Shown here: piece after piece, positions 4,916-64,000 of the stretch
Position numbering within the stretch: position 1 is the stretch's first letter
How the letters are laid out: each line of letters begins with the position of its first letter
DNA from: Patescibacteria group bacterium
GTDB lineage: Bacteria > Patescibacteriota > Saccharimonadia > UBA4664
DNA length: 64,000 bases
Reading direction: 5' to 3'
NCBI GenBank assembly: GCA_028288925.1
Contig: JAQGHG010000010.1
Coordinates: 8,057-72,056, forward strand
The notes under the pieces: generated by a model
Databases searched by the model: none
The model's input: the letters and a program-made list of their open reading frames with translations, nothing else
Told to the model about the DNA's origin: nothing
Translations under genes and position numbers: made by a program

Positions 4916-7051
4916 TCATGAGGCTGCCTCCGGCGCGATCACGTCCAGATGGCGGCGGAGGAAATCGAGCTGCAGCTTGAGCAGGTTTTCGGCGACTTCC
5001 TCTTGAGGGGTCATATGTGTGACGCCGGAGAGGGGCAAAACCTCGTGCGGCCGGCCGGCCGCGAGCAGGGCGCCCGAGAGCCTCAGGGAGTGCGCCACTA
5101 CTACATTGTCGTCGGCTAGCCCATGAATAATTTGTAGCGGTCGCTCCAGCCGGGCGGCGGCGGTGAGTAATGAGGTTTGGTCGTAGACAGCCGGGTTGGC
5201 CTGGGGATCGCCCAAGTACCGCTCGCTGTAATGGGTGTCATAGAGCCGCCAGTCGCTGACGGGGGCACCGGCTATCGCGGCCGCGAAGATGTCCGGTCGA
5301 AAGATGACTGCGGCGGCGGCCAGGTAGCCTCCAAACGACCAGCCCCGAATGGCGACTTTGCGACTGTCGAGCTGAGGATATTTGGCCAGGACCGTCTGCA
5401 GAGCCTCTACTTGATCCTCGATAGCTGGATTTAGGAGATCGCGATGGATGGCTTTTTCCCAGGCCGGCCCTCGCCCAGGCGCACCGCGGCCGTCCGCCAC
5501 TATCACGGCAAAACCGGCGTTGGCAAACCATTGGGCCGACAGCAAGGCGTGGCTGGCAGCTACAGCATACTGGGCGTGTGGTCCGCCGTAGGGGCTCATG
5601 AGCACCGGCAGCGGAGACGTGCCGTCGTAATGTTCCGGCAGGATTACGGCTGCTTCGAGGTGGCGCTTGGTGCTCGTAAGCCATGCGGGCCGGGGCTGGA
5701 GCGGCGGGACGGCGGCATGCGTAGCGATCTCCCCTATCCGTTTGAGCGCGCCATCCATCCAGAGGTGCACCTGCGGCGCCTCGTAACGGCAGGTGCTCAG
5801 GGTATTCTCATGGATGATCACGGTGGAACCGCCGACGGTGGCGCCGTGAACGCCCTCGCCCCGAGTGAGCTGGGTGGGCTTACCCTCGGGCGCCACCGCC
5901 CAAACCTGCCAAGAGCGAGGGGTCGGGTCCCAGGCCTCGAAGATGAGAGTACCGTCGTCTGTCCGCCCGCTAAACTGGCGCACATTGAGGTGAGGTGGCG
6001 TAACGGCTTTACCGTTTACCGTGAGGTGGCGGACGTCTGTGTCGGCCAGATCCACGATCTGGCCGTCTGGGAATTGGGCCGGCAACCCAGCGTGAATCTC
6101 GATCCAACGGGGATCTTTTTGCTCGGCTTGGAGCTGGGCATCGCCCGAAACAGGGTCTATTAGGTAGTGCTTGATGCGCGTTTGGTCGCGCGACTGAACT
6201 ACTATCAGAGGTGATGCCGAGGCCCATCTGACTGCTACCAGATAGGGATAATCGCGGTGGTCCCAGGTGATCGCGGTCTTATCCCCGCTCGCGGCGTCGA
6301 TGAGGCTCAGCGTGACGCCGGCGTTGGCCGTGCCGGCCGCTGGGTACTTAATGGTGGTGGGAGCCGCCGCCGGGTTGCTGGGATCACTGATAAACCAATC
6401 CGTCACCGGCTGGTTGTCGACCCGGGCGGCGATCAGCCGGGTACTGTCCGGCGACCACCAATAGCCCCGCTGGCGGTCCATCTCTTCGGCCGCTACAAAG
6501 TCCGCCACGCCCCAGGTGACGTGTGGGACGTCGGGTTTGGCTAGCTGTTTAACTTGGGGCTCGGCGGCCGAAACATCCAGACGGCCGAGCGCTCCGCCGG
6601 ATATATATGCTACGTAGTGGCCGTCGGGGCTCAGGCGGGGGTCGTAGGCCGATTCGCCTTTTAAGACGCGGGCCGGTTGCCGGCCGGGTTTTTCCGGCGC
6701 CAGGTACAGGTCGCCATTTAGCGCGAAAACGACCCGCTGCCCATCTTTGGATACGCTGTAGCTAGTGATGCCGGCCGAACGTTCCCGCAGGCGCTCGCGG
6801 CGGCGGCGCTCCTCGGCGGGCAATTCGCCGCTTTCGCCCGCGGCCAATGTGAGCGGATCGGCCACCAGCACCGCTGCGGCCATTTGGTCGTTGGTTATAT
6901 CAATGCGCCAGAGACAATTTACGGTATCTTCGCCGTGCCGTGAGCGCAAAAAGTAAATCCGCCCACCCCCGCCCGTAACGGTGACAGTCCGGGGATGGCC
7001 CAAGGTAAAGTTGCGAGTACGGGCGTTTTGACGGGGGAAAGAATCTGCCAT
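4916..7051 (-). CDS. S9 family serine peptidase, dipeptidyl-peptidase IV-like (beta-propeller + alpha/beta hydrolase)
   Basis: 710 aa; C-terminal GWSFGG nucleophile elbow and HGLADDNV; N-terminal propeller region. Confidence 0.85.
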   Translation of the reverse strand: MADSFPRQNARTRNFTLGHPRTVTVTGGGGRIYFLRSRHGEDTVNCLWRIDITNDQMAAAVLVADPLTLAAGESGELPAEERRRRERLRERSAGITSYSVSKDGQRVVFALNGDLYLAPEKPGRQPARVLKGESAYDPRLSPDGHYVAYISGGALGRLDVSAAEPQVKQLAKPDVPHVTWGVADFVAAEEMDRQRGYWWSPDSTRLIAARVDNQPVTDWFISDPSNPAAAPTTIKYPAAGTANAGVTLSLIDAASGDKTAITWDHRDYPYLVAVRWASASPLIVVQSRDQTRIKHYLIDPVSGDAQLQAEQKDPRWIEIHAGLPAQFPDGQIVDLADTDVRHLTVNGKAVTPPHLNVRQFSGRTDDGTLIFEAWDPTPRSWQVWAVAPEGKPTQLTRGEGVHGATVGGSTVIIHENTLSTCRYEAPQVHLWMDGALKRIGEIATHAAVPPLQPRPAWLTSTKRHLEAAVILPEHYDGTSPLPVLMSPYGGPHAQYAVAASHALLSAQWFANAGFAVIVADGRGAPGRGPAWEKAIHRDLLNPAIEDQVEALQTVLAKYPQLDSRKVAIRGWSFGGYLAAAAVIFRPDIFAAAIAGAPVSDWRLYDTHYSERYLGDPQANPAVYDQTSLLTAAARLERPLQIIHGLADDNVVVAHSLRLSGALLAAGRPHEVLPLSGVTHMTPQEEVAENLLKLQLDFLRRHLDVIAPEAAS

Positions 7052-53921: not shown

Positions 53922-54755
53922 TTAGAGGGTGGTAATGGGACGGGCTTGGAGGATGTGGAGTTTGTCCCAGGCATAGGCCCACTCGAGGTCGAGCGGAAGG
54001 CCAAATTGGGCTTCGAGGCGGCCCGCCAGCTGGGTGAGTTCGGCGAGCTGGACCGGAGTGAGAGCGGGCTTGGTTTGACGGTCCGGAGCTACGGGCTGCT
54101 CTCTGAGACCGCTGGTCGCCCCCACCAGCATAACGGTTTTTTCGACGATGGTCTGATTGATGATTTGACCTGTGGTTTTATTAATAAGGTAATTATCGGG
54201 CGTCGCGATGCCTTGCACTAATAGCTCTCCCAGGCCATAAACGGCTTCTACCACGATCTGATCGCGGGCCTTGGTGACGGGATTGGCGGTAAAGAGCACG
54301 CCGGAAACGTCGCTTGGGATCATGGCCTGAACGATGACTGCCACGGGCATGTGGCTCCGGCCGGCGTCATAGGCTTGGGCGCGGGCGGCCGCGCCGGACC
54401 GGCGGCAATCGGCGATGCGCGCCAAGATGTCGCCGCGCTGCACGTACAGGTAGCTCTCGAACTGACCGGCCCATGATTGGCCCGGGCCGTCCTCCCCCAC
54501 CCCCGAGGAACGTACCGCCACGGAAGGCGTACCGAGCTGATCGAAGGCAGCGAGTATTTGGCTTTGCGAGGCTCCGATATCAGTGTCCGGCGGCACGACG
54601 AAGCCCGGCGGCACCGGCGCGCCGTACGCCATGAGCCGGCCGAGAGCGGCGGCTTTGCCGCCTACCGTGCCGAGGGGCGCTGCGGCGGCTTGCTTGAGGC
54701 CCCAGGTAATACGTGCGTTAGGTGAGATCATATATGCGATTATATCCTTATTCAT
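53922..54755 (-). CDS. pyruvate-phosphate-dikinase N-terminal (ATP-grasp PEP/pyruvate-binding, PPDK_N) domain protein
   Basis: GGKAAALGRL...VAVRSSGVGEDGPGQSWAGQFESYL...ANPVT. With the downstream ORF it forms a split PEP-synthase / rifampin-phosphotransferase-like enzyme. Confidence 0.7.
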   Translation of the reverse strand: MNKDIIAYMISPNARITWGLKQAAAAPLGTVGGKAAALGRLMAYGAPVPPGFVVPPDTDIGASQSQILAAFDQLGTPSVAVRSSGVGEDGPGQSWAGQFESYLYVQRGDILARIADCRRSGAAARAQAYDAGRSHMPVAVIVQAMIPSDVSGVLFTANPVTKARDQIVVEAVYGLGELLVQGIATPDNYLINKTTGQIINQTIVEKTVMLVGATSGLREQPVAPDRQTKPALTPVQLAELTQLAGRLEAQFGLPLDLEWAYAWDKLHILQARPITTL

Positions 54756-55141
54756 CCAGTATTTGACGACCGACCGAGGCCGATGTACATTTAAACGACA
54801 AATAGGCTATGCCCCGCCCCCCCCGTTTCTTTGTAAGAGCGGGGGGAGAACTTTTTAAGCGGCTCTCACGATATCTGCTATTTCTTGTCTTATTTTTGTA
54901 ATATCTTCATCGCCCACCCACCCATCGTGATTAATGAGCCGGCGCGCATCAAAGGCTCGGATCTGTGAGACCAATGCGGTTTTGTAGGATACAGACTGTT
55001 GAAAACGGGGCGGGTGAAGTCTGGGCCCTTGCCGTCCTCCTCGAACCCGACATTACACCCAACAGCTGCCCACCAAACCTCTTGCTCGTAATAGTGAGGG
55101 ATGGTTAACCGAACATAATGCGAACGTGCAAGCTTAAGGGG

Positions 55142-55627
55142 CTAGCGGCGGGCCCGGGCGCGTTTGTGGCGGGCTTCGGTGCGGCGGTCGGCTTCGCGCT
55201 TGGCCAGGTGGTGGGCGTCGTCCATTTCGGTGGCTAGGTCGGTGATGTCGACGCCTTGCTTTTCGGCGAGGCGGATGAGGGTTTTCATGATGACGGCGAT
55301 TTCTTTTTCGGCTTGGAGGTCGGTTTCGTAGTCGAGCTGGGCGCGGATTTCGGCTTTTTCGGCGCTGCGGTTTTGGCTAATCATGACGAAGGTCGAAAGG
55401 AAGATGGCTTCCAGCGACACGACCATGGTCAGGAGGCCGAAGGGAAATTTATCGAACATGTAGGAGGCGCCGAGCAGGCCGAGATTGGCCGCGATCCACA
55501 GGCCGAACCAGAGGGTGTGGAAGTAGACGAACTTGATGTTGCCGGCAAAGGCTGTAATGCCGTCGGACAGCTTATCCTCGAAATCCCGGAACTGCCTAAT
55601 ATACGAGTTAGGGTTGATGAGCGCCAC
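55142..55627 (-). CDS. DUF1003-family membrane protein
   Basis: MVVSLEAIFLSTFVMISQNR consensus with a coiled-coil tail. Confidence 0.6.
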   Translation of the reverse strand: MALINPNSYIRQFRDFEDKLSDGITAFAGNIKFVYFHTLWFGLWIAANLGLLGASYMFDKFPFGLLTMVVSLEAIFLSTFVMISQNRSAEKAEIRAQLDYETDLQAEKEIAVIMKTLIRLAEKQGVDITDLATEMDDAHHLAKREADRRTEARHKRARARR

Positions 55628-55672: not shown

Positions 55673-56242
55673 CTATTTGACGATGAGCAGCAGGATGAGG
55701 CTGGCGGCGAGCAGGCCGATGAAGACAAGGGCGGCCATCTCGGTGAGCTGCTGCTCGCGGGCTTCGACCTCGCGCAGATTGCGGGCGGCCACCACGTAGC
55801 CGCCGTGATAGTGGACGATGACGGCGGCGAGGCGGGATTGATCGTTGGGCTGCCAGGTGACGCGGTTTTCCTGAGGGGCGGCGGTGTCTTTGCCGGTGTC
55901 GGCCTTGGCGGCCGCGAAGGCGCCGGCCGGAGGCAGCACGGTGGCGCCGTCGAGCGTACCGGAGGTGGCGACGACGCCGCGCTGCTCATCGGTGACGATC
56001 AGGAACGGCGCCAAGCTGGCGCGCATATTCACCTGGCGGGCCGGCACGAGCGCACTGGGCTTCTCGCCGGCGGCCAGGGCGGCGGCGGTGTCCTCGGCCA
56101 TCTGGATCTGCGGGTCGTTGGCCGCCTGGCGGTGGCTCTGCTGCACGGTGGCGTACACCAGCGTGGTGAGGCCGACGCTCATCACCAAGTATGGCAGCCA
56201 GAGCCGGACGAGGGGAATTTCGCGAAAGGTGGGTAATTTCAT
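55673..56242 (-). CDS. hypothetical bitopic membrane protein (N- and C-terminal TM, Ala-rich periplasmic domain)
   Basis: Hydrophobic profile; preceded by RR-box site 2 and an 11-codon leaderless mini-ORF. Confidence 0.5.
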   Translation of the reverse strand: MKLPTFREIPLVRLWLPYLVMSVGLTTLVYATVQQSHRQAANDPQIQMAEDTAAALAAGEKPSALVPARQVNMRASLAPFLIVTDEQRGVVATSGTLDGATVLPPAGAFAAAKADTGKDTAAPQENRVTWQPNDQSRLAAVIVHYHGGYVVAARNLREVEAREQQLTEMAALVFIGLLAASLILLLIVK

Positions 56243-56298
56243 AGTAAGGGCTCCTTAGGCCGTCAATTGGGAGAGTGCACTTTGCTTCATGTACTTAG

Positions 56299-56329
56299 CT
56301 TACGCCTGCGGTGTGAAGGGGGCGTGAAG
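56299..56329 (-). promoter_or_regulatory. RR-box site 2: CTTACGCCTGCGGTGTGAAGGGGGCGTGAAG (GTGAAG-N5-GTGAA) 9 nt upstream of a mini-ORF ATG (56290)
   Basis: Same spacing and architecture as the sites at 59054 and 63361; in gene orientation a -10-like TAAGCT lies 7 nt before the ATG. Confidence 0.5.
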
Positions 56330-56334
56330 ACCTA

Positions 56335-56736
56335 TTACTCGTGTTTGAGCACTTGTTTAAAGTCGGCCATTGTCATAATCCTAATACCTTTGTGCTCGCC
56401 CAGCACCAATAGGTCCTGATCGGCCGTCACCAAATAATCAACCCGTCCGGCGATAGCTGCTGCCAAAATATGGTCGTCGGATGGGTCGCGGCAGATTTGT
56501 TCGATAGTGGTAGGAGTGACTACCTCGGAAACTTTGGCGAGTGCTCGGGTGGCGGCTTTGGCTTTCTGCTTAGTGAGACCTAAAGCTTCTACGAGCACCC
56601 GCTCGGTTTCATCGAGGATGAACTCCGAGGTTATATGGGCTACCTCGTTGTGCAGCAGGAGGTTTCGAAACACCAGCAGCTCGCCACGGCGCGCCAGTAT
56701 CTTTATGAGGATATTAGTGTCGAAAAGTACCCGCAT
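56335..56736 (-). CDS. PIN-domain toxin (putative VapC-like TA toxin)
   Basis: MRVLFDTNILI...D...D acidic PIN residues. Confidence 0.7.
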   Translation of the reverse strand: MRVLFDTNILIKILARRGELLVFRNLLLHNEVAHITSEFILDETERVLVEALGLTKQKAKAATRALAKVSEVVTPTTIEQICRDPSDDHILAAAIAGRVDYLVTADQDLLVLGEHKGIRIMTMADFKQVLKHE

Positions 56737-56739
56737 TGG

Positions 56740-57021
56740 CTACTTTTGAGTTTTTTGCTTCTGGCGGATGGTTTTAACAGCGCGCACAAAATCTTCATCG
56801 GTGTCGTAGCCTAGCGCCTGGGCTTTGATGGCCACATCCTCGGACAGGGCCTCGAGCAAGAGCCAATTGTCGGCCCGGCTCTGCATTTCGGTGGCTTTGA
56901 GCCTGCCCACGAGAGCTTGGCGAATGTAGTCGCTACGGCTGGCGTATTCGGCCTTGGCGGCTACGTCGATCTTTTTGACGAGCTCTTCGGGCAGGGAGAT
57001 GTTGATGGTTTGGGTGGACAT
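56740..57021 (-). CDS. ribbon-helix-helix (CopG-like) antitoxin
   Basis: INISLPEELVKKIDVAAKAEYASRSDYIRQAL RHH; 3-nt gap to the PIN gene. Confidence 0.65.
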   Translation of the reverse strand: MSTQTINISLPEELVKKIDVAAKAEYASRSDYIRQALVGRLKATEMQSRADNWLLLEALSEDVAIKAQALGYDTDEDFVRAVKTIRQKQKTQK

Positions 57022-57090
57022 GATTTTTGCTCCCGGTTATACAACAATTGTATGGTTGTTGTATGGTTTGTGTCAATTGTATCTAGGGAG

Positions 57091-58371
57091 TTAATCGTGG
57101 CGCAGCGCGGTGATGGGATCGAGGCGGGCGGCGCGGAGGGCGGGCAGCGTGCCGGCGAGCAGACCCAGGGCCATGGCCCCAGCGATGATGAAGATCATAT
57201 CGGTAGCCGGGTACAGCAGGATGTGGGTACCGGGAAAGCCTTTAAAGACCGACTTGAGCAAGATGCGGTCAATGAGCGGCCCGATGGCTATGGCCAGCCC
57301 TACGCCCGCTACGCCGCCCCAGAAGCCGATGGAGACGGCCTCGGATAGGAAGATGGCGAAGATGCCACGCGGGCGCATGCCTAGCGCCTTGAGCAGGCCG
57401 ACCTCTTGCGTGCGCTCGAGCACGGCCATGAGCAGGGTGTTGATGATGCCCAGCGCGGCGGCCAGCAAGGCTACCCCGGCGAAGGCGCTCAGACCCAGCT
57501 GCACCATATTGATGACGGTGTTGAAGTGGGCGGTTTCGTCGGCGAAGGTTTGGGCACTGTAGCCGCCGGCGTCGAGCGCGGACTTCATGCTGGCGGTTTG
57601 GGCGGAGGTCTGGTTGGGGTCGGTGGTGGCGAAGAGGCCTTCGGCTTTGAGTTTGCCGGCGGTTTGGTAGCTCGCCAGGTCGGCCTGCTCCAGGTAGCTG
57701 ATGGTCGCTCCCGGCGCGTGCAGGGTGTCGCTGGCCACGGCCGCCACCTTAAACTGTACGGTTTCGGAGCGCAGCACCTGGCCGGGCTTGTCGCCGGCCT
57801 GGCTCAGGCCCACGGTCACGGTCTTGCCCAGGGCGTCGGCGGCCGAGGCAAAGCCCAGGGTCTGGATGTAGGCGTAGGGCAGCACGATGGCGGTCTTGTC
57901 GGCCGGGTCGGGGTATTTGCCGGCGGTCACTTCTGGGTTGTTGGCGGTGGGATAGTTGGCTTGGAGCTGCACCACGTATTTCTTGCCACTGCCGGCCTGG
58001 ATGTAGTCCGGATTTACCTTATACACGGGATATGCTCCGGTGACGCCGGCCGCTTTCTTCACGGCGGCCACGTCGGCGTCGGTCATGTAGACGGTGCCGG
58101 TGGCGGCGCTGTGGGTGGGATCGTATTCGAGCACATTATTGGCGCTGCGGCGCTCGTCTTTGGTGTTGGCTTTGAGCTGCACGCTCATGGTATTAGGCTG
58201 GCCGTAGGCCTGGATCTGCGCGTCTATGTAGTGCCGCACGCCCTGGCTGAGCGCGGTGACCATAGCGAGCGTGAAGGTGCCTACTAAAATGGCGGTCACC
58301 GTAAGGAAGGTGCGGGACTTGGAGCGGGCCAGGTTGGAGCTGCCGGTTTTGGCGTATTCGAGGAGTTTCAT
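57091..58371 (-). CDS. ABC transporter permease, FtsX/MacB-type (1 TM + large extracytoplasmic domain + 3 TM)
   Basis: FtsX-like C-terminal TM bundle; overlaps the ATPase gene by 1 nt. Confidence 0.8.
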   Translation of the reverse strand: MKLLEYAKTGSSNLARSKSRTFLTVTAILVGTFTLAMVTALSQGVRHYIDAQIQAYGQPNTMSVQLKANTKDERRSANNVLEYDPTHSAATGTVYMTDADVAAVKKAAGVTGAYPVYKVNPDYIQAGSGKKYVVQLQANYPTANNPEVTAGKYPDPADKTAIVLPYAYIQTLGFASAADALGKTVTVGLSQAGDKPGQVLRSETVQFKVAAVASDTLHAPGATISYLEQADLASYQTAGKLKAEGLFATTDPNQTSAQTASMKSALDAGGYSAQTFADETAHFNTVINMVQLGLSAFAGVALLAAALGIINTLLMAVLERTQEVGLLKALGMRPRGIFAIFLSEAVSIGFWGGVAGVGLAIAIGPLIDRILLKSVFKGFPGTHILLYPATDMIFIIAGAMALGLLAGTLPALRAARLDPITALRHD

Positions 58372-59045
58372 TACTGGATCTTCCCGTCTTTTATGATGAT
58401 GGTACGGTCGCAGAGCTTGGCCAGGTCGGCGTCGTGGGTCACGACCACCAGGGTGATGTGGCGCTTGCGGTGCAAGTCAAATAGCAGCTTGATGACGGTA
58501 TGGCCGGTCTGGGTATCCAGGTTGCCGGTGGGCTCGTCGGCGAAGATCACTTCGGGGCCGGCCACCAGGGCGCGGGCGATGGCTACGCGCTGCTTTTGGC
58601 CGCCGGAGAGGTCGGTGGCGCGGTTTTTGGCCTTGTCGGTCAGCTCCACTTGCTCTAGGGCTTCCATGGCGCGGCGGTTGCTCTCCGCGACGGAGATGTT
58701 GGCAATCTTGAGCGGCAGCGCCACGTTTTCGAGCACGGTCAGGCGCGGCTGCAGGAAGAATTGTTGGAATATGAAGCCAAATTTGGTGTTGCGCAAGGAG
58801 CTGAGCTCGCCCTCGCTCATGTGGCCCAGATCGTGGCCGCCGACCTTTACCGAGCCGGAGGTGGCGGTGTCGAGCCCGGCCAGCAGGTGCATGAGTGTGG
58901 ATTTGCCCGAGCCGCTCTTGCCCACTATGGCCACGCTCTCGCCCGGCGCGATGCTCAGATCCACGCCGCGCAGCGCCTCATAGGCCGTATCGCGCTTGCC
59001 ATAGGTTTTATGGAGTTGGTTGGTTTGGAGTAATGCGTTTGTCAT
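58371..59045 (-). CDS. ABC transporter ATP-binding protein (MacB/LolD/BceA-like)
   Basis: GKSGSGKST Walker A, LSGGQKQR signature, FADEPTGNLD Walker B. Confidence 0.9.
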   Translation of the reverse strand: MTNALLQTNQLHKTYGKRDTAYEALRGVDLSIAPGESVAIVGKSGSGKSTLMHLLAGLDTATSGSVKVGGHDLGHMSEGELSSLRNTKFGFIFQQFFLQPRLTVLENVALPLKIANISVAESNRRAMEALEQVELTDKAKNRATDLSGGQKQRVAIARALVAGPEVIFADEPTGNLDTQTGHTVIKLLFDLHRKRHITLVVVTHDADLAKLCDRTIIIKDGKIQ

Positions 59046-59053
59046 GGTCTTAC

Positions 59054-59084
59054 TTTACACCGGGGATGTGAAGGGGGTGTGAAC
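59054..59084 (-). promoter_or_regulatory. RR-box site 1: TTTACACCGGGGATGTGAAGGGGGTGTGAAC, 8 nt upstream of the ABC ATPase ATG
   Basis: GTGAAG-N5-GTGAA with 11-bp periodicity; in gene orientation a -10-like TAAAGT lies 7 nt before the ATG (leaderless). Confidence 0.55.
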
Positions 59085-59132
59085 GACGAACGGCCCGATA
59101 CTATTCATCAAAGATTCTGCTATTCTCGAGAT

Positions 59133-59822
59133 ATGCAGCCGTTTAATACCGAAATTGACCAAATTACGCAAGACGTCTCCTCATATGCTAAGAGGATTTT
59201 TGATGAATATGCGGAGCTTAATCTCGAGTTAAAATCTGATTATTCAAAAAGCGCGGTATGGATAAGTTTTCACCTGGGTTGTGATTATTTCTTGAGTGCT
59301 CGCGATACCTTGGAAGCGAGCCGACTCCTAGGAGGAGGTGCAATTGTCAGAACATGTATTGAGAATATAGCTGATCTTTTCTATATCTTCGCCTCGTCAC
59401 AAAAAGAGGGTAAGCGAGCTAAGGCTTACGTCGAAAGTCTAGAGACATTTAGACAGAAGATGATAGAGATAACGAAATTGGGCAGCGATGCCGTCTTTGA
59501 GGCTCGCATGGCGAAACAGGTTAATGACTGGACCACCTCTACCATTACCGATCGAATGAAGGTGACAGGTCAAGCGATGACGACAATCTATGACTTTCTT
59601 AGTTACTCGAGCCACCCCAACCCAGGCGCTCTTTCCTATCTCCTAATTCCAGGGTTCAAAAAAGCACAACAAAATTTACTGCAACAGGTCAATTGTACCG
59701 TGATGTTGCATTTAATTAGTCATGTTCTCATGCATGATGATCTCAAGTCAGTGACCCTAGAAGAAGCCGACGCCGTAGCTAGGCGCCTTGGCTCAAAAGT
59801 ATTACCTGATGGAGAGAGGTAA
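59133..59822 (+). CDS. hypothetical cytoplasmic alpha-helical protein (low-GC island gene A)
   Basis: ~40% GC against ~62% background. The ORF-track start at 59079 is a GTG inside the RR-box, so the first ATG (59133) is preferred. Confidence 0.5.
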   Translation: MQPFNTEIDQITQDVSSYAKRIFDEYAELNLELKSDYSKSAVWISFHLGCDYFLSARDTLEASRLLGGGAIVRTCIENIADLFYIFASSQKEGKRAKAYVESLETFRQKMIEITKLGSDAVFEARMAKQVNDWTTSTITDRMKVTGQAMTTIYDFLSYSSHPNPGALSYLLIPGFKKAQQNLLQQVNCTVMLHLISHVLMHDDLKSVTLEEADAVARRLGSKVLPDGER

Positions 59823-59835
59823 TTGATGGTGGTAT

Positions 59836-60519
59836 TCACTTGAGCATTAGGGGCAGGTTTGAAGTAACCCATCTCCAGTCAAAAAGGACTGCCTGCAAGA
59901 GAACGAAATACGCGATTAGAGCTATCTTTAAAGCCCACTTCTGAACGTTTAACCATCTAGGTTCGGGTGTTGTTTTTCCCTGAGTTGGCTTGAAGATGAC
60001 ATTTTCCATAGTCTCCATTTCGCCAAAACTACGAAACTTTGCTTCAGATAGTAATTTAGCCCTTGCGCTATTAGCAAAACCCCACATCTTATGGAAGCCC
60101 ACAAGTACCATATAATATTGAAGCCCAGCAGCAATGGAAACTCCGAGCGACAGAACGCCCAAGAGGGTCAGCCATTTCTGATCAAACGTCATCGACTTCA
60201 GAATCTCACCGTTAGAGAGCATAACTATGTTTGCCGACAACATTACAGTCGTTGCCAGCATTAGCTGACCACACATAGCCCTCTCTGTCTCGTTTTCCTC
60301 TAGAAAGGCTTTGTCTCTTTGGTGCACCGCTTTCTCGATTTCTCCATCCAGGAAATTCTTGAGCTCTGGCGTTTTCTGGGCGAGGTCAGAATATATTGGA
60401 CGGGTATCGGGAGTTGCACTCGACAAGGAGCCGCGTTCAGTCTTTGATCTACTGATTCTGGTCACTTGATGTAGGGGCTTCTGGTGCCGTAGAAGTAGGC
60501 TCACTAACCGCAGGTCCAC
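59836..60519 (-). CDS. hypothetical membrane protein (low-GC island gene B; start uncertain, GTG 60519 or ATG 60276)
   Basis: Three or four TM helices in the C-terminal two-thirds; a 68-aa ORF (60449..60655) overlaps in another frame, which may indicate a frameshift. Confidence 0.45.
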   Translation of the reverse strand: MDLRLVSLLLRHQKPLHQVTRISRSKTERGSLSSATPDTRPIYSDLAQKTPELKNFLDGEIEKAVHQRDKAFLEENETERAMCGQLMLATTVMLSANIVMLSNGEILKSMTFDQKWLTLLGVLSLGVSIAAGLQYYMVLVGFHKMWGFANSARAKLLSEAKFRSFGEMETMENVIFKPTQGKTTPEPRWLNVQKWALKIALIAYFVLLQAVLFDWRWVTSNLPLMLK

Positions 60520-60720
60520 TTACTTGGGTTTCAGCCGGATTGCTTACTTGACTCATGTCAGGGTAAATCGCATGGGGTGTGCGGTCATCAGAGCCTTTAA
60601 CCACACGACCAGTTGGAATATCTACGAGTTTAACTTCTTTGCTGTCTTCATTCATAATTGCTTGCCCCTTTATATTCTTAGTGTACTTCTTTCACAGTCG
60701 TTCTGTGTAGCCATTTTTCT

Positions 60721-61611
60721 CTAATCAGTGCTTGATGACTGGTCTTGCCTCTGAGATGCATGCCAAGCTGCTTTCTCCGCTACATCTGCATCCATAATCT
60801 CTTGACCCTCCCTGGAGACAACCTTCATTTCAGCCTTAACAGCTTCGTCAGTAATCGAACTTTTACGACTAGCGACGATCCCATTCGACCGCTTAATCAT
60901 ATCTGGGGTCTTGTCGACGTTGGTGGCCAACCGCACATAGGCCGTAATCTCTCTGAGCCTATGGGCGATTAGGTACTCGATGAAATCAACGATTCCGCTC
61001 ATCTGGCTACGGATGTGAGTTGTGTGGTTTTTATAAATCTCGGGGGACATTATTGCCTTCAGCCTCAACTCCCCCAGCTCATCCAAGGTTCTGCCGATAC
61101 CCTGGCTGTCCAAATTCAATCGGCGTATATCGTAGTAAAGGTCACTTAGCATTTGGGCCAGTTTAAGGTCCGCAAGTTTCAGGAAATGGGCTTCATCCGT
61201 TGGCAAGTGAACCGGTCGCCGAAAGTTGACCGCACCTTGATCACTTGCTTGGATTAGCGACTTGATTGCCACAATGTTGTCACCGAGCATGGCGTACAAG
61301 AGTACCAATTCACGATTGAGCTTAATCAGGTCATTGTAGTGCAATACGCGTCGTTCGTGGGCTAAGCGCCGATCTTCCGCCGCCAGGTCAGCTTTGAGCT
61401 TTCGTTGGTCCTTATACCAGTCGTTAATGACGATACCCAGAGTGGCGCCAAGGGCGCCGATTAGCCCGCCGAGAGCTGACGATACTGATTGCTGTCCTAG
61501 GGGACTAAGTATAGGCATACTGGGACGAAAACGAGCTACCAGATAGCAAAGTGAACCTAGTGCTACCAGAATGATGGCCGTGGAGCCATAAGCCCTGAGT
61601 TTTCGAGTCAT
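60721..61611 (-). CDS. hypothetical protein with two N-terminal TM helices and long cytoplasmic helical domain (low-GC island gene C)
   Basis: ~37% GC; ATG 61611 (GTG 61620 is the alternative); located 59 nt downstream of the histidine-kinase stop. Confidence 0.5.
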   Translation of the reverse strand: MTRKLRAYGSTAIILVALGSLCYLVARFRPSMPILSPLGQQSVSSALGGLIGALGATLGIVINDWYKDQRKLKADLAAEDRRLAHERRVLHYNDLIKLNRELVLLYAMLGDNIVAIKSLIQASDQGAVNFRRPVHLPTDEAHFLKLADLKLAQMLSDLYYDIRRLNLDSQGIGRTLDELGELRLKAIMSPEIYKNHTTHIRSQMSGIVDFIEYLIAHRLREITAYVRLATNVDKTPDMIKRSNGIVASRKSSITDEAVKAEMKVVSREGQEIMDADVAEKAAWHASQRQDQSSSTD

Positions 61612-61679
61612 AGTATCCACACCGGCTCCAGATTAGAGATACTATAACTCACGGTCGGCCAGATAGAAACTTCTGGATA

Positions 61680-62681
61680 TTAGTGAGGGATCGGTAGCTC
61701 AATGATAAACGTCGCGCCAGGACGGATGTTCTCGGCAGAAATGGACCAGCCGTGCGCTTCGGTGATTTCTTTGGCTATGGCAAGCCCTAAACCGAGGCCA
61801 CCGGTAGCGCGGGAGCGGGATTCGTCCACTCTGTAGAAGCGTTCGAAGAGGTCGGGGAGGCTTTCTTCCGGGATGCCTCGGCCGTTGTCTTGGACAGATA
61901 GCATACTGCCGTCGTAGGTGAGGGTGATTTGGGTGCCTTGGGAGTATCGGATGGCATTACTTATGAGATTGCCGAGCAGGCGTTCGAGGAGTTTGGGGTC
62001 GGCCTGGAGGGGTTGGGAGGTGAGATTGAGGTCGAGGGTGAGGTTGGCGGTTTTGAGCTCGTCGGCGTAGTGGCGGCTTAGGCGGCGGGCGAGTTTGGCG
62101 AGGTCGACGGGCTCGAGGTGGGGGCGGATGGCCGAGGAGCGGATGGAGGCGTAGTCGCCCAGGCCTTGGACGAGGTCACTGAGGCGTTCGGCTTGTTCGT
62201 AGAGGAGTTGGACGCGGTCTTGGTCCATTCTGAGGACGCCGTCTTTGACGCCTTTGAGCTGGGCGTAGAGGGCCGTGACGGGGGTGTTGAGCTCGTGGGA
62301 GGTGTCGGAGATGAGGTCGCGGCGGAGTTTTTCTTCGTGGGCCAGGCGGGTGCCAAGCTCGTTGACTTCGGCGATGACGGCGTCGAATTCCTGGACGTCG
62401 CTGGATCCCAGCTTGGCCTGGTAGTTGTTTTGGCGCAGGGAGGCGATGACTGCGGCGAGGTTGCGCAGGGGCTCGGACACCAGGCGGGCGGCCAGGATGC
62501 CGAGAATGAGCGGGATGAGGATAGCCAGGGTGGGCAGCTCCAGGAAGACGAGCGGGAAGTGGGTGCGGCCGGAGCGGACGTAGAAGGCGGTGATGATGAG
62601 GGCGCCGATGAACAGCGTGGGGCCGACCACCACGATGAGCAGCGCGATGCGGACGGAGAGGCGGCGGAAGAGGCGCTTCAC
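61680..62681 (-). CDS. intramembrane-sensing sensor histidine kinase (BceS/LiaS-like: two TM with very short loop, HisKA + HATPase_c)
   Basis: SHELNTP H-box, GLGLGLAIAKEI G-box; ATGA overlap with the RR gene. Confidence 0.85.
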   Translation of the reverse strand: MKRLFRRLSVRIALLIVVVGPTLFIGALIITAFYVRSGRTHFPLVFLELPTLAILIPLILGILAARLVSEPLRNLAAVIASLRQNNYQAKLGSSDVQEFDAVIAEVNELGTRLAHEEKLRRDLISDTSHELNTPVTALYAQLKGVKDGVLRMDQDRVQLLYEQAERLSDLVQGLGDYASIRSSAIRPHLEPVDLAKLARRLSRHYADELKTANLTLDLNLTSQPLQADPKLLERLLGNLISNAIRYSQGTQITLTYDGSMLSVQDNGRGIPEESLPDLFERFYRVDESRSRATGGLGLGLAIAKEITEAHGWSISAENIRPGATFIIELPIPH

Positions 62682-63352
62682 TCCCCTACCTCGCGGAACC
62701 GGTAGCCACGGCCGATGACGGTCTGGATGTAGACGGGGTGGGCCGGATCGGGCTCGAGGGCCTTGCGGATGGCTTTGATGTGGGCGTCGATGGTGCGGTC
62801 GAAGACGGCGTGGCCGGCGGGGTCGTCGTAGGACTGGTCCAGGAGCTGGTCGCGGGTGAGGACCTGGCCGGGCTGCTTGGCCAGCGCCAGCAGAATGTTG
62901 AACTGGGTGGTAGTGAGGGCGATGGCGCGATTGTTTTGGGTGACGCGCATGGCGGCGGGCTCAATGGCGATATCTTTGAACTCGAGGCGGGCGGGCGCGT
63001 GACGGCGGAGCAGGGCCTGGGCGCGGGCCACGAGGATGGGCGGTTTGAAGGGCTTTTTGATGTAATCGTCGGCGCCGAGGTCTAGGCCCAGCAGCTCATC
63101 GGTGTCCTCGGCGCGGGCGGTGAGCATGATGATGGGCACCAGGGAATCGGCGCGGATACGGCGACAGACTTCGAGGCCGGAGAGGCCCGGGAGGTTGAGG
63201 TCGAGGACAATTAAGTCGAATTTCGACTGCTCGAATAATTCGAGGGCGGCCGGGCCGGTGGCGGCTTCGGCCACGTCGTAACCCGCACGTTTGAGGTAGG
63301 CGGCTTCGACCTCGCGGATAGGGGCTTCGTCTTCGACGATGAGGATCTTCAT
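62678..63352 (-). CDS. OmpR/PhoB-family response regulator
   Basis: MKILIVEDE...D receiver; C-terminal winged helix (GYRFRE). Confidence 0.9.
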   Translation of the reverse strand: MKILIVEDEAPIREVEAAYLKRAGYDVAEAATGPAALELFEQSKFDLIVLDLNLPGLSGLEVCRRIRADSLVPIIMLTARAEDTDELLGLDLGADDYIKKPFKPPILVARAQALLRRHAPARLEFKDIAIEPAAMRVTQNNRAIALTTTQFNILLALAKQPGQVLTRDQLLDQSYDDPAGHAVFDRTIDAHIKAIRKALEPDPAHPVYIQTVIGRGYRFREVGE

Positions 63353-63360
63353 GGAGCCTA

Positions 63361-63391
63361 TTTTACACGAGGGGCGTGAAGCTGGCGTGAA
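63361..63391 (-). promoter_or_regulatory. RR-box site 3: TTTACACGAGGGGCGTGAAGCTGGCGTGAAT, 8 nt upstream of the RR ATG (likely autoregulatory)
   Basis: Same motif and spacing as site 1; in gene orientation TAAAAT lies 8 nt before the ATG. Confidence 0.55.
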
Positions 63392-63470
63392 TGCCCCCTG
63401 TGAGCTTTTTGAGGGCGGGTTGAACCTGCGCGAGTTTAAATTAGAGAAACAGCTGGTGTTGGTATATAAT

Positions 63471-64000
63471 TTAAAGATTCATGCTTCTGCTCTGCTACGT
63501 CTTCTACTTCATTGCGGCTACGCTCTCGCCGCTACAACGGCGTAAACTTTCACTCACATCCCCTACTAGCGGTTACACATTTGCCTTCGCCTTTAGGACT
63601 TCACTTGTAGTAGGTTGCCTCGGCTTACTCTTACCTTTCTTCTCACCAGCGGAATTCAAGGGAGAATCATCAACAATCTTGGTTCTGGCATTTGCTAGTG
63701 GTATATTCGGCACCATCTCAATCACAAGTCAATATTGGGCACAAAAACACGTTGAGGCAGGCACTACCATCCTCATTGGAAACATATACACTCCAGTGAC
63801 AATTATTTTGGCGTCCTTATTGCTAAGAGAAGGACTCACACCACTGCAAGCAATCGGGACTCTATTACTGCTTGCTGCAATGATAGTGGTCTCAAAAAAA
63901 CATCACCTTGGTAAACAGCGATTCGACAAATACTTCTTAACAATGCTTTTAAGCGGGATCGCTCTCGGAATCGCTCTAACTGCGGAACGTGCACTTATTA
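63471..64000 (+). CDS. EamA/DMT-family transporter (3' end beyond window)
   Basis: No stop codon before the window end; EamA-like LLLREGLTPLQAIGTLLLLAAMIVV; low GC; not in the ORF track. Confidence 0.55.

What the first reader, a model, noticed from the sequence alone, without database searches (positions are those of the whole stretch)
56288..63392. Candidate regulon of the local two-component system: a conserved direct-repeat box abutting three leaderless operon starts
Three copies of a ~31-bp element are visible at 59054..59084, 63361..63391 and 56299..56329. All contain GTGAAG-N5-GTGAA, two half-sites one helical turn (11 bp) apart, preceded by TTTACAC/CTTAC-N4-GG. Each box ends 8-9 nt upstream of an ATG: the ABC ATPase gene, the response-regulator gene, and an 11-codon mini-ORF that precedes the membrane-protein/DUF1003 operon. 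In gene orientation each box is followed by a -10-like hexamer (TAAAGT, TAAAAT, TAAGCT) 7-8 nt before the ATG, which suggests leaderless mRNAs. The repeats occupy the -35 position, as in PhoB/OmpR-activated promoters. Together with the intramembrane-sensing histidine kinase (two TM, very short loop) and a MacB/BceAB-type ABC transporter, this looks like a Bce/Psd-type peptide-antibiotic sensing and detoxification module with an extra membrane-protein/DUF1003 target operon. A weaker, partial match (GGGGCGGGTGAAGTCTGGGC) occurs at about 55004..55023.
Basis: partly seen in the sequence, partly recalled or inferred. Interest (0 to 1): 0.7.

Follow-up and report, generated by a model that had tools for sequence, protein, structure and literature searches.

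The report
Response-regulator boxes at three leaderless promoters
Three copies of a conserved DNA box mark the promoters that a local sensor-regulator pair of an uncultured Patescibacteria bacterium most likely switches on, giving one of the first testable gene-control circuits for this little-known group, although the circuit is of a familiar kind.

Summary
TTCAC-N6-TTCAC occurs exactly three times in 64 kb (0.08 expected). All three copies are intergenic, on the gene strand, and lie exactly 10 nt upstream of a TAnnnT -10 hexamer that sits 6-7 nt before an ATG.

A weight matrix built only from sites in other genomes scores the three boxes at 20-26 bits; the next best site in the window scores 11. 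The same box, with the same 10-nt gap, precedes the orthologous response-regulator (RR) and ABC-transporter genes in about ten metagenomic or MAG relatives (39-79% RR identity, 33-60% GC).

The best reading is an OmpR/PhoB-family RR that activates -35-less promoters, including its own, and produces leaderless mRNAs.

It is not a Bce/Psd module. The permease is a 4-TM MacB/YtrF type, and the site is a direct repeat, not the Bce consensus.

The antibiotic-sensing idea gains support: in relatives the same box drives vanH-vanA, murF-vanZ and vanZ-carboxypeptidase operons.

The third "extra" operon follows the permease directly in two close relatives. In this window a toxin-antitoxin cassette has split that operon, and box C sits just after the cassette.

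The weak fourth site is a single half-site inside a pseudogene.

Verdict: new member of a known kind, of moderate interest.

The parts
63360..63391 (-). Box B plus its -10 hexamer at the RR-kinase operon: TTCACgccagcTTCAC, 10 nt, TAAAAT, then 7 nt to the ATG at 63352. This is the predicted autoregulatory promoter.
   Evidence: 20.4 bits. Orthologous boxes lie before the RR genes of L081, L085, L086, L089, L088, L001 and L066.
62678..63352 (-). OmpR/PhoB-family response regulator, 224 aa (Response_reg + Trans_reg_C).
   Evidence: It falls below every NCBIfam equivalog cut-off; the best is PhoB at 201 bits against a cut-off of 296. It is 100% identical to a protein named 'Patescibacteria group bacterium'.
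61680..62681 (-). Histidine kinase, 333 aa. Two TM segments (about 12-30 and 44-62) with a loop of about 10-13 aa, a weak HAMP match, then HisKA and HATPase_c. Its GTG start overlaps the RR stop codon.
   Evidence: The TM1 motif RLSVRIALLI is conserved in orthologues.
59084..61679 (.). Low-GC island (44-47% against about 60% in the flanks) inserted between the kinase gene and box A. It carries a DUF5677 gene and three ORFs with no family match. It is not part of the system.
   Evidence: In L081, L085 and L089 only about 60-100 nt separate the kinase and ABC genes.
59052..59083 (-). Box A plus its -10 hexamer at the ABC operon: TTCACacccccTTCAC, 10 nt, TAAAGT, then 6 nt to the ATG at 59045.
   Evidence: 26.4 bits. 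Orthologous boxes lie before the ABC genes of L081, L085, L086, L088 and L089.
58371..59045 (-). ABC ATPase, 224 aa, of the LolD/MacB/BceA-like class.
57091..58371 (-). MacB-type permease, 426 aa. It has 4 TM segments, with a MacB_PCD extracytoplasmic domain between TM1 and TM2 and an FtsX domain.
   Evidence: YtrF 1e-21, MacB 3e-19, BceB 3e-3, HrtB 4.7.
56335..57076 (-). Inserted toxin-antitoxin cassette with its own promoter, TTGACA-18-TACAAT (57076..57047). It encodes an RHH antitoxin (57021..56740) and a PIN toxin (56736..56335). It splits the ancestral ABC operon.
   Evidence: The cassette is absent from L119 and L170, where 18-27 nt separate the permease and the 189-aa gene.
56297..56328 (-). 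Box C plus its -10 hexamer: TTCACgcccccTTCAC, 10 nt, TAAGCT, then 6 nt to the ATG at 56290. It starts 6 nt after the PIN stop codon. It is a lineage-specific internal promoter for the cut-off operon tail.
   Evidence: 23.7 bits. No counterpart exists in L119, L170, L090, L091 or L171.
56255..56290 (-). 11-codon mini-ORF (MKQSALSQLTA*) that begins at the predicted transcription start. Its TAA stop overlaps the AAGGAG Shine-Dalgarno sequence of the next gene.
   Evidence: It is not conserved elsewhere, and the leader shows no significant RNA structure. Whether it functions is unknown.
55673..56242 (-). 189-aa membrane protein with N- and C-terminal TM segments and no Pfam or NCBIfam match. It belongs to a widespread uncharacterised family and is usually paired with DUF1003.
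55142..55627 (-). DUF1003 membrane protein, 161 aa.
55004..55023 (-). Rejected: it has a single half-site and lies inside a frameshifted PemK/MazF-like pseudogene (about 54855..55117).
   Evidence: no matrix hit.

Best explanation
The three boxes are binding sites for the phosphorylated OmpR/PhoB-family response regulator encoded at 62678..63352.

**Proposed mechanism**
1. A head-to-tail RR dimer binds two TTCAC half-sites spaced 11 bp apart. If transcription starts at the A of the ATG, these lie at about -38..-34 and -27..-23.
2. The box takes the place of the missing -35 element and recruits RNA polymerase to the TAnnnT -10 hexamer exactly 10 nt downstream. This is class II, pho-box-like activation.
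3. Transcription then begins at or within a base or two of the start codon. The RR-kinase operon (positive autoregulation) and the ABC operon are therefore made as leaderless mRNAs.
4. The partner kinase has almost no extracytoplasmic loop, so it most likely senses a signal within or at the membrane. The probable signal is damage or binding by cell-wall-active (lipid II or glycopeptide type) antibiotics.
5. The output is a MacB/YtrF-type ABC transporter plus a 189-aa membrane protein and a DUF1003 protein.

**The third box.** Those last two genes follow the permease directly in two close relatives, so they most likely formed the 3' end of the ABC operon. In this genome an RHH-PIN toxin-antitoxin cassette was inserted after the permease gene. 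Box C, immediately behind the cassette, gives the severed tail its own RR-dependent promoter.

**Shown versus inferred**
- Shown: the sites, their fixed geometry, their conservation next to orthologous genes, the domain content and the operon split.
- Inferred: RR binding, activation rather than repression, the leaderless starts and the nature of the signal.
For: 1. **Specificity.** There are 3 exact sites against 0.08 expected, all intergenic and on the gene strand. A matrix from non-window sites scores them 20-26 bits against 11 for the next best.
2. **Phylogenetic footprint.**
   - The box precedes the RR and/or ABC genes in L081/L082 (79% RR identity), L085, L086, L089, L088, L001, L003 and L066. 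It also appears in a Clostridia locus, L058, arranged RR-kinase-box-MacB permease-ATPase.
   - These loci range from 33 to 60% GC. Only the TTCAY half-sites and the TAnnnT positions carry information; the spacers drift with GC content.
   - In 1.52 Mb of other loci only 4 sites reach 18 bits, and 3 of those lie directly upstream of RR homologues.
   - In 278 kb of DUF1003 loci the relaxed pattern occurs twice, with no -10 hexamer.
3. **Rigid geometry.** The gap between the proximal half-site and the -10 hexamer is 10 nt in every site. No -35 is found at 16-18 nt, whereas the scan does find the toxin-antitoxin promoter.
4. **Leaderless starts.**
   - The -10 hexamer sits 6-7 nt before start codons that are fixed by conserved N-termini (MKILIVEDE; MTNALLQTNQLHKTYG versus L081 MTTPLIQTHNLHKTYG).
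   - The same 6-nt spacing holds for the RR gene in L081, L085, L086, L089 and L066 although the spacer sequences are unrelated.
   - TAnnnT with its first T about 12 nt before the start codon is the published leaderless signature (PMC3160421).
   - About 13-20 of 60 long ORFs in the window carry it.
5. **RR link.** The Patescibacteria-clade orthologues share an almost invariant DRT(I/V)DAHIK recognition-helix stretch.
6. **Function.** Targets in relatives include a D-Ala-D-Lac ligase (610 bits, cut-off 550) with a vanH-like gene (539.1 bits, just under the 540 cut-off). There are also a divergent murF-like/vanZ pair (L087) and a vanZ plus Peptidase_S11 pair (L083).
7. **Operon split.** The permease is followed by the 189-aa gene and DUF1003 after 18-27 nt in L119 and L170.
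Against: - There is no experimental evidence of binding, transcription start sites or induction.
- A box that overlaps the -35 and spacer region could in principle act as an operator for repression.
- In L083 the box points away from the RR gene, toward vanZ. Several ABC orthologues (L085, L086, L089) have 20-30-nt leaders with a Shine-Dalgarno sequence. Leaderlessness is therefore not a fixed property of the regulon.
- Box C has no counterpart in any other genome examined. Its function rests only on its perfect match to the consensus geometry.
- The inferred signal relies on guilt by association in relatives whose taxonomy is not established (L083, L087).
- Only 64 kb of this genome could be scanned, so the full regulon is unknown.
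Confidence: 0.75

Rival explanations
1. The boxes are operators and the RR is a repressor. Binding over the -38..-22 region blocks RNA polymerase, and the signal relieves repression.
For: The box overlaps the region normally contacted by sigma region 4 and the spacer. In L083 the box abuts the RR gene's own -10 hexamer in the opposite orientation.
Against: None of the promoters has a usable -35 at 16-18 nt or an extended -10, so they should be weak without an activator. The invariant 10-nt distance to the -10 hexamer is the pho-box arrangement, which I cite from established knowledge of PhoB class II activation. Inducible resistance genes such as vanHA are activated by OmpR-family regulators (PMC4405338).
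Confidence: 0.1
2. Box C is a non-functional or redundant relic, for example a copied promoter fragment carried in with the toxin-antitoxin insertion. The 189-aa/DUF1003 genes would then be expressed by read-through from the ABC and toxin-antitoxin promoters, so the regulon would have two promoters, not three.
For: Box C is absent from every relative examined. No terminator-like site was found between the permease gene and box C, so read-through is plausible. The mini-ORF is not conserved.
Against: Box C keeps both half-sites perfect, the exact 10-nt gap and a TAnnnT hexamer. It scores 23.7 bits, higher than box B. An unselected relic would be expected to have decayed. Outside the motif positions, boxes A and C are only loosely similar, which argues against a very recent copy.
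Confidence: 0.2
3. The system is the phosphate (PhoR-PhoB / SenX3-RegX3-like) regulon, and the boxes are pho boxes.
For: PhoB is the best NCBIfam match for the RR (201 bits). Some sources label homologues RegX3 or PhoP. From my own knowledge, TTCAC repeats with 11-bp periodicity resemble actinobacterial PHO boxes.
Against: The score is below the PhoB cut-off of 296. The kinase has no PAS domain. No pst, phoU or phosphatase genes are under the box in any locus; the targets are ABC exporters and van, vanZ or carboxypeptidase genes.
Confidence: 0.04
4. The repeat is recognised by a different factor, such as an alternative sigma factor or an unlinked regulator. Its association with the RR gene would then be only synteny.
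For: No binding data exist.
Against: Two identical half-sites one helical turn apart are the hallmark of OmpR/PhoB winged-helix dimers. The association holds across very different gene orders and target genes. The only constant neighbour is the RR-kinase pair. No sigma factor gene is nearby.
Confidence: 0.04

Closest known systems
PhoB-type class II activation at pho boxes (E. coli PhoR-PhoB; OmpR/PhoB family in general)
   Same: The RR has a winged-helix domain. It has two direct-repeat half-sites with 11-bp periodicity. The box replaces the -35 element and lies a fixed ~10 nt from the -10 hexamer. The regulator's own operon is autoregulated.
   Different: The half-site sequence is different (TTCAY). 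The kinase has no PAS domain and almost no periplasmic loop. The targets are envelope and antibiotic genes, not phosphate genes. The promoters appear to give leaderless mRNAs. The RR scores below the PhoB equivalog cut-off.
BceRS-BceAB / PsdRS-PsdAB peptide-antibiotic modules of Firmicutes
   Same: A two-component system lies next to an ABC transporter whose promoter carries the RR site. The kinase has two TM segments and a very short loop (PMC3023708). A role in resistance to cell-wall antibiotics is likely. The ATPase is similar to BceA (7e-54).
   Different: The permease has 4 TM segments and a MacB_PCD between TM1 and TM2. BceB has 10 TM segments with a loop of more than 170 aa between TM7 and TM8 (PMC3023708). 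The site is a direct repeat, not AnnTTACnAnnnnGTnAG (PMC10858260). The organism is a Patescibacterium. Orthologous systems lack any adjacent transporter in L083 and L087, which argues against obligatory sensing through the transporter.
HssRS-HrtAB and HitRS-HitPQ (Staphylococcus, Bacillus anthracis)
   Same: An OmpR-family RR binds a direct repeat in the promoter of an adjacent ABC exporter with a 4-TM FtsX-type permease (PMC10368836, PMC3968170). From my own memory of Stauff et al. 2007, not verified here, the HssR repeat GTTCATATT-N2-GTTCATATT also has the TTCAT-N6-TTCAT register. HitRS responds to envelope stress (PMC3968170).
   Different: The permease is not HrtB-like (E = 4.7 to 7w78_B). 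The kinase has no sizeable extracytoplasmic domain. No link to haem is seen.
VanRS-controlled glycopeptide resistance operons
   Same: In L087 a 61%-identical RR and its kinase sit in a vanH-vanA-RR-kinase operon. The same box lies upstream of it and upstream of a divergent murF-like/vanZ pair. L083 has a box before vanZ plus a D,D-carboxypeptidase-like gene. So in some relatives this RR clade plays the VanR role.
   Different: The window has no van genes. Both the window RR and kinase and the L087 pair score far below the VanR and VanS models (for example 169 against 350 bits). Enterococcal VanR sites are 12-bp (T/C)CGTANGAAA(T/A)T motifs upstream of -35 (PMC4405338), not TTCAC repeats over -35.
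YtrEF / MacB / pneumococcal Spr0694-0695 type VII ABC transporters
   Same: These are the closest solved relatives of the permease: YtrF 1e-21, MacB about 3e-19, 5xu1 6e-16. The domain order and 4-TM topology are the same.
   Different: No MacA-like adaptor gene is present. Regulation is by an adjacent two-component system; from my own knowledge, the ytr operon is instead controlled by the GntR-type repressor YtrA.

Membership tests
OmpR/PhoB-family two-component system with class II (pho-box-like) promoter | RR with a receiver domain plus a Trans_reg_C winged-helix domain, and a partner HisKA/HATPase_c kinase | tested here: met
   Response_reg 3.5e-30, Trans_reg_C 1.6e-22; HisKA 1.4e-09, HATPase_c 6.9e-26.
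OmpR/PhoB-family two-component system with class II (pho-box-like) promoter | Two direct-repeat half-sites about one helical turn apart | tested here: met
   TTCAC-N6-TTCAC (11-bp register) at all three sites, with 3 found against 0.08 expected. The same register is present in the orthologous loci.
OmpR/PhoB-family two-component system with class II (pho-box-like) promoter | The box replaces the -35 element at a fixed distance from the -10 hexamer | tested here: met
   The gap is 10 nt in every site. The sigma-70 scan finds no promoter at the boxes, although it does find the toxin-antitoxin promoter.
OmpR/PhoB-family two-component system with class II (pho-box-like) promoter | Phosphorylated RR binds the box and activates transcription | not testable with these tools
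   Needs EMSA or footprinting, and in vitro transcription or reporter assays.
Bce/Psd-type module | Intramembrane-sensing kinase: two TM segments joined by a linker of no more than about 11 residues (PMC3023708) | tested here: met
   A hydropathy scan places TM segments at about 12-30 and 44-62, with a loop of about 10-13 residues. This is borderline but of the same type.
Bce/Psd-type module | BceB-type permease: exactly 10 TM segments with an extracytoplasmic loop of more than 170 aa between TM7 and TM8 (PMC3023708) | tested here: not met
   The permease is 426 aa with 4 TM segments and a loop of about 258 aa between TM1 and TM2. It has MacB_PCD plus a single FtsX domain. BceB scores E = 3e-3 against YtrF at 1e-21.
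Bce/Psd-type module | RR-binding consensus AnnTTACnAnnnnGTnAG in the transporter promoter (PMC10858260) | tested here: not met
   The promoters carry a direct TTCAC repeat.
Bce/Psd-type module | Signalling requires the transporter (the transporter acts as sensor) | not testable with these tools
   Indirect evidence against: orthologous RR-kinase pairs in L083 and L087 have no adjacent ABC transporter.
HssRS-HrtAB | HrtB-type haem-efflux permease | tested here: not met
   E = 4.7 to C. diphtheriae HrtB, 7w78_B.
HssRS-HrtAB | Direct repeat for the RR in the transporter promoter (PMC10368836) | tested here: met
   Box A. Similarity of the half-site to the HssR repeat rests on my memory only.
VanRS | RR and kinase reach the NCBIfam VanR and VanS model cut-offs | tested here: not met
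   vanR_ACDEGLN scores 169 against 350 bits; HK_VanS scores 130.5 against 400.
VanRS | Controls vanH, vanA and vanX resistance genes | tested here: not met
   No van genes are near the system in the window. In L087 a homologous system with the same box is linked to vanH-vanA and murF/vanZ.
PhoR-PhoB phosphate regulon | PhoB equivalog score, a PAS-containing PhoR, and pst/pho target genes | tested here: not met
   PhoB scores 201 against 296 bits. The kinase has no PAS domain. No pho genes lie behind any box.
Leaderless mRNA genes | TAnnnT with its first T about 12 nt upstream of the start codon and no Shine-Dalgarno sequence (PMC3160421) | tested here: met
   The first T lies at -12 (boxes A and C) or -13 (box B), and no SD is present. 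The spacing is conserved for the RR gene in L081, L085, L086, L089 and L066.
Leaderless mRNA genes | The mapped transcription start coincides with the start codon | not testable with these tools
   Needs 5' RACE, dRNA-seq or Cappable-seq.
MacB-type (type VII) ABC transporter | Separate ATPase, plus a permease with 4 TM segments, a MacB_PCD between TM1 and TM2 and a C-terminal FtsX domain | tested here: met

The most novel reading that the evidence does not exclude
This RR-kinase clade may be a Patescibacteria-wide sensor of cell-wall-targeting antibiotics. It is unrelated to canonical VanRS or BceRS but does their job. Its portable 'TTCAY-N6-TTCAY-N10-TAnnnT' promoter box is repeatedly captured by different resistance genes: MacB-type exporters, vanH-vanA, murF/vanZ, carboxypeptidases and the 189-aa/DUF1003 pair. 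When an operon is broken by mobile DNA, as by the toxin-antitoxin cassette here, the box can be re-created. For epibionts living on antibiotic-producing Actinobacteria, this could be a core survival circuit.
Probability: 0.3. Interest if true: 0.65.

Novelty: new member of a known kind. Interest (0 to 1): 0.42.

Why it matters
Almost nothing is known about transcriptional regulation in Patescibacteria (CPR). The review I checked (PMC11665869) contains no mention of two-component systems, promoters or leaderless transcripts.

This locus offers three things:
- a defined cis-element and a candidate regulator, with a small regulon that can be tested directly by EMSA or reporter assays;
- a consensus usable to predict targets across the many Saccharimonadia, Dojkabacteria and other CPR genomes that carry this RR clade;
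- evidence that leaderless, -35-less promoters are common in at least this lineage.

The link to vanH-vanA and vanZ genes in relatives suggests a non-canonical regulator of glycopeptide-type resistance in environmental bacteria. The mechanism itself (an OmpR/PhoB activator with a direct repeat over the -35 region, next to an ABC exporter) is textbook, so this extends a known kind and is not a new one.

Tried and rejected
- **Exact look-up of the window RR.** It returned no contig, so the rest of the 78.8-kb source contig could not be scanned.
- **Genome-collection scan with the RR.** Closer relatives had to be fetched through the protein search and contig look-ups.
- **Metagenome scan with DUF1003 (80 loci, 278 kb).** No box lies upstream of any 189-aa/DUF1003 pair. 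This ruled out box C as a conserved feature and led to the operon-split explanation.
- **Recent duplication of box A to give box C.** Outside the motif positions the similarity is weak, so this stays unresolved.
- **Attenuator or SD-sequestering hairpin in the box C leader.** None was found; the z-score was +1.27.
- **Defence-system annotation of the low-GC island.** No PADLOC hits and only a DUF5677 match in Pfam.
- **Memberships considered and rejected.** Bce/Psd, HssRS-HrtAB, VanRS and PhoRB; see the membership tests.
- **Recognition-helix comparison.** DRTIDAHIK is invariant in the box-bearing clade, but similar helices (DRTIDSHIK) occur in unrelated alphaproteobacterial RRs. This gives supportive, not discriminating, evidence.
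Rejected.
- **Relaxed-pattern hit in L171.** The one hit, at 5522, lies inside a gene and has no -10 hexamer, so it is a chance match.

Full report
**1. What is in the window**

All relevant genes are on the minus strand. Reading right to left:

| Coordinates | Feature |
|---|---|
| 63391..63360 | box B and its -10 hexamer |
| 63352..62678 | response regulator (RR) |
| 62681..61680 | histidine kinase |
| 61679..59084 | 2.6-kb low-GC island |
| 59083..59052 | box A and its -10 hexamer |
| 59045..58371 | ABC ATPase |
| 58371..57091 | MacB_PCD+FtsX permease |
| 57076..56335 | RHH-PIN toxin-antitoxin cassette |
| 56328..56297 | box C and its -10 hexamer |
| 56290..56255 | 11-codon mini-ORF |
| 56242..55673 | 189-aa membrane protein with no family match |
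| 55627..55142 | DUF1003 protein |

The RR is 100% identical to a protein annotated 'Patescibacteria group bacterium'. The named homologues at 55-65% identity are all Saccharimonadales, Dojkabacteria or other Patescibacteria.

**2.

In gene orientation the three elements read as follows.

- Box A: TTCACacccccTTCACatccccggtgTAAAGTaagaccATG
- Box B: TTCACgccagcTTCACgcccctcgtgTAAAATaggctccATG
- Box C: TTCACgcccccTTCACaccgcaggcgTAAGCTaagtacATG

TTCACN6TTCAC occurs three times in 64 kb against 0.08 expected, and 0 of 100 shuffles reach three. One mismatch adds a single intragenic hit. The relaxed pattern TTCA[CT]N6TTCA[CTA] adds nothing in the window.

The fourth 'weak' match at 55004..55023 has one half-site only. 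It lies inside a frameshifted PemK/MazF-like pseudogene, so I reject it.

**3.

The genome-collection scan gave only distant relatives. I therefore took closer RR homologues from the protein search and fetched their contigs.

Box-bearing promoters in the relatives:

| Locus | RR identity | Promoter | Sequence |
|---|---|---|---|
| L081 | 79% | RR | TTCACgcgtccTTCACatcggccatgTACAATaaccccATG |
| L081 | 79% | ABC | TTCACacgcccTTCACacgcttagtgTAGTCTaagggcATG |
| L085 | 62% | RR | TTCATcgcaaaTTCACataggcgcggTACACTtaaggtATG |
| L086 | 61% | RR | TTCATaccaaaTTCACggccgtaggtTACACTtgaatcATG |
| L089 (Saccharimonadales) | 60% | RR | TTCGTggtaaaTTCACattctcgcggTAAACTtagaatATG |
| L066 (Paceibacterota) | 39% | RR | TTCATattctcTTCATattttaagtgTATAGTtagtatATG |

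- In L081 the ABC genes follow the kinase gene directly, with no island.
- L085, L086 and L089 also have a box plus -10 hexamer before the ABC genes, but there a 20-30-nt leader with a Shine-Dalgarno sequence follows.
- L088, L001 and L003 carry the box as well.
- A Clostridia locus, L058, is arranged RR-kinase-box-MacB permease-ATPase.

A 32-nt matrix built from 14 sites outside the window scores the window boxes 26.4, 23.7 and 20.4 bits, against 11.1 for the next best site. Information is concentrated in the TTCAY half-sites, the A that follows each, and T, A and T of the hexamer. The spacers drift with genomic GC content of 33-60%.

In 1.52 Mb of other fetched loci only four sites reach 18 bits. 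Three of those lie immediately upstream of RR homologues. In 278 kb of DUF1003 loci the relaxed pattern appears twice, with no -10 hexamer. Under a uniform model the chance of the relaxed pattern falling in a given 60-nt promoter is about 3e-4.

The refutation criteria in the finding (similar density in coding or unrelated DNA; no conservation at orthologous operons) are therefore not met.

**4. How it most likely works**

The RR has receiver and Trans_reg_C domains. Two identical half-sites 11 bp apart are what a head-to-tail winged-helix dimer binds; this is established knowledge of the OmpR/PhoB family.

If transcription starts at the A of the ATG, the half-sites lie at -38..-34 and -27..-23. 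The gap to the -10 hexamer is 10 nt in every site I collected. No -35 is present at 16-18 nt. The consensus scan finds no promoter at the boxes, yet it finds the toxin-antitoxin promoter TTGACA-18-TACAAT at 57076..57047.

This is the pho-box arrangement, in which the activator replaces -35 recognition. I therefore favour activation, including positive autoregulation through box B, over repression.

**5. Leaderless starts**

The start codons are fixed by conserved N-termini: MKILIVEDE for the RR, and MTNALLQTNQLHKTYG against L081's MTTPLIQTHNLHKTYG for the ATPase. The -10 hexamer ends 6-7 nt upstream and there is no Shine-Dalgarno sequence.

TAnnnT with its first T about 12 nt before the start codon is the published in-silico signature of leaderless genes (PMC3160421). 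The 6-nt spacing recurs at the RR gene in five other genomes although the spacer sequences are unrelated.

The signature is not special to this regulon. About 13 of 60 long ORFs in the window have it at their first candidate start, where about 2 would be expected, and 15-20 have it overall. So leaderless transcription is well supported by sequence. It remains unproven and is not universal, since several ABC orthologues have leaders.

**6. The third target explained**

In two independent close relatives the 189-aa gene and DUF1003 follow the permease after only 18-27 nt, with no box and no toxin-antitoxin genes.

- L119 has a permease 79% identical to the window's.
- L170 comes from the same sample as L081, and its first 78 nt encode a permease C-terminus that matches the window's.

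More distant 189-aa/DUF1003 pairs (L090, L091, L171) have ordinary promoters and no box.

So this gene pair was most likely the 3' end of the ABC operon. In the window an autonomous RHH-PIN cassette is inserted after the permease gene, and box C begins 6 nt after the PIN stop codon.

Box C matches the consensus better than box B does. I read it as a lineage-specific internal promoter that keeps the severed tail under RR control. Its origin is unresolved, because it resembles box A only loosely outside the motif positions.

The mini-ORF starts where a leaderless transcript would start, and its TAA stop overlaps the AAGGAG of the next gene. It is not conserved, and the leader has no significant structure. 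I attach no function to it.

**7. What the system senses**

The kinase has two TM segments, a loop of about 10-13 residues and a conserved TM1 motif (RLSVRIALLI). This fits sensing within or at the membrane.

The permease's closest solved relatives are B. subtilis YtrF (1e-21), MacB (about 3e-19) and pneumococcal Spr0695, entry 5xu1 (6e-16).

Targets of the same box in relatives point to the cell wall:

- **L087.** The box precedes vanH-like (539 bits; cut-off 540), then a D-Ala-D-Lac ligase (610 bits; cut-off 550), then the RR and kinase. A second box drives a divergent murF-like/vanZ pair.
- **L083.** The box drives vanZ plus a Peptidase_S11 gene.

Both the L087 pair and the window pair score far below the VanR and VanS models.

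I infer a response to cell-wall-active antibiotics, with moderate confidence of about 0.5. The taxonomy of L083 and L087 is not established.

**8. Comparison with known systems**

- **Mechanism.** It works like a PhoB-type class II promoter.
- **Organisation.** It resembles Bce, HssRS-HrtAB or HitRS modules, in which a two-component system controls the adjacent ABC exporter (PMC3023708, PMC10368836, PMC3968170).
- **Bce/Psd membership fails.** BceB needs 10 TM segments and a loop of more than 170 aa between TM7 and TM8 (PMC3023708). This permease has 4 TM segments and scores BceB at only 3e-3. The Bce RR consensus AnnTTACnAnnnnGTnAG (PMC10858260) is absent.
- **HrtAB membership fails.** HrtB scores E = 4.7.
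- **VanRS membership fails.** The model scores are too low, and enterococcal VanR sites are 12-bp motifs upstream of -35 (PMC4405338).
- **PhoRB membership fails.** The score is below the cut-off, the kinase lacks a PAS domain, and no pho genes are targets.

**9. Verdict**

The feature is real and well conserved, and its most likely meaning is clear. It is an uncharacterised clade of a textbook regulator type, with a newly defined box, in a phylum whose regulation is almost unstudied.

I rate it a new member of a known kind, interest 0.42. Confidence is about 0.75 that the boxes are activating sites for the local RR.

Noticed in passing
window 59084..61679: A 2.6-kb island of 44-47% GC (flanks about 60%) is inserted between the kinase gene and box A. 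It holds a DUF5677 gene (59133..59822, +) and three minus-strand ORFs (299, 68 and 227 aa) with no Pfam or PADLOC match. Relatives have only about 60-100 nt at this position.
   Followed up: partly
window 56335..57076: An RHH-antitoxin/PIN-toxin cassette has a near-consensus promoter (TTGACA-18-TACAAT). An inverted repeat (ATACAACAA...TTGTTGTAT) overlaps the -10 hexamer and is probably the antitoxin operator. The cassette is inserted inside what is a single ABC operon in relatives.
   Followed up: partly
window 54855..55117 (minus strand): A frameshifted PemK/MazF-like toxin pseudogene (...EVWWAAVGCNVGFEEDGKGPDFTRPVF / ...SQIRAFDARRLINHDGWVGDEDITKIRQEI) lies just downstream of DUF1003. A third mobile-type element within 6 kb.
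   Followed up: partly
L087 6035..11775: A metagenomic contig carries vanH-like, a D-Ala-D-Lac ligase, then an RR and kinase of this clade, plus a divergent murF-like/vanZ pair. Both operons sit behind the TTCAT-N6-TTCAC box. The RR and kinase are not VanR/VanS by NCBIfam scores, and no vanX was seen. If the contig is patescibacterial, this would be a glycopeptide-resistance cluster with a non-canonical regulator in the CPR.
   Followed up: partly
window, whole (e.g. starts at 54731, 52393, 51055, 50689, 49533, 47408, 40532, 37564, 34027, 24521): Many first genes of operons have TAnnnT 6-8 nt before the ATG and no Shine-Dalgarno sequence. This suggests that leaderless mRNAs are common genome-wide in this 59%-GC Patescibacterium.
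   Followed up: partly
L001 9910..9950: In a Saccharibacteria relative, a heptanucleotide (AGCTATC) is repeated five to six times in tandem between the box promoter and the RR start codon. This microsatellite in the 5' leader might vary in length.
   Followed up: no
L085 18516..18863: An 851-kb contig carrying an orthologous RR-kinase-ABC module also encodes a WhiB-family protein, Ku and LigD. These are gene families typical of Actinobacteria, the usual hosts of Saccharibacteria.
   Followed up: no
L088 12854..15439: Here the box drives an ABC ATPase plus a 611-aa FtsX permease. The permease still has only 4 predicted TM segments, but its extracytoplasmic domain is about 425 aa. It is a much enlarged variant of the MacB-type partner.
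   Followed up: no
window 63442..63999: An EamA-family transporter gene (ATG at 63481) is transcribed divergently from the RR operon. It has its own promoter-like site, TAGAGA-17-TATAAT (63442..63470), and no box.
   Followed up: no
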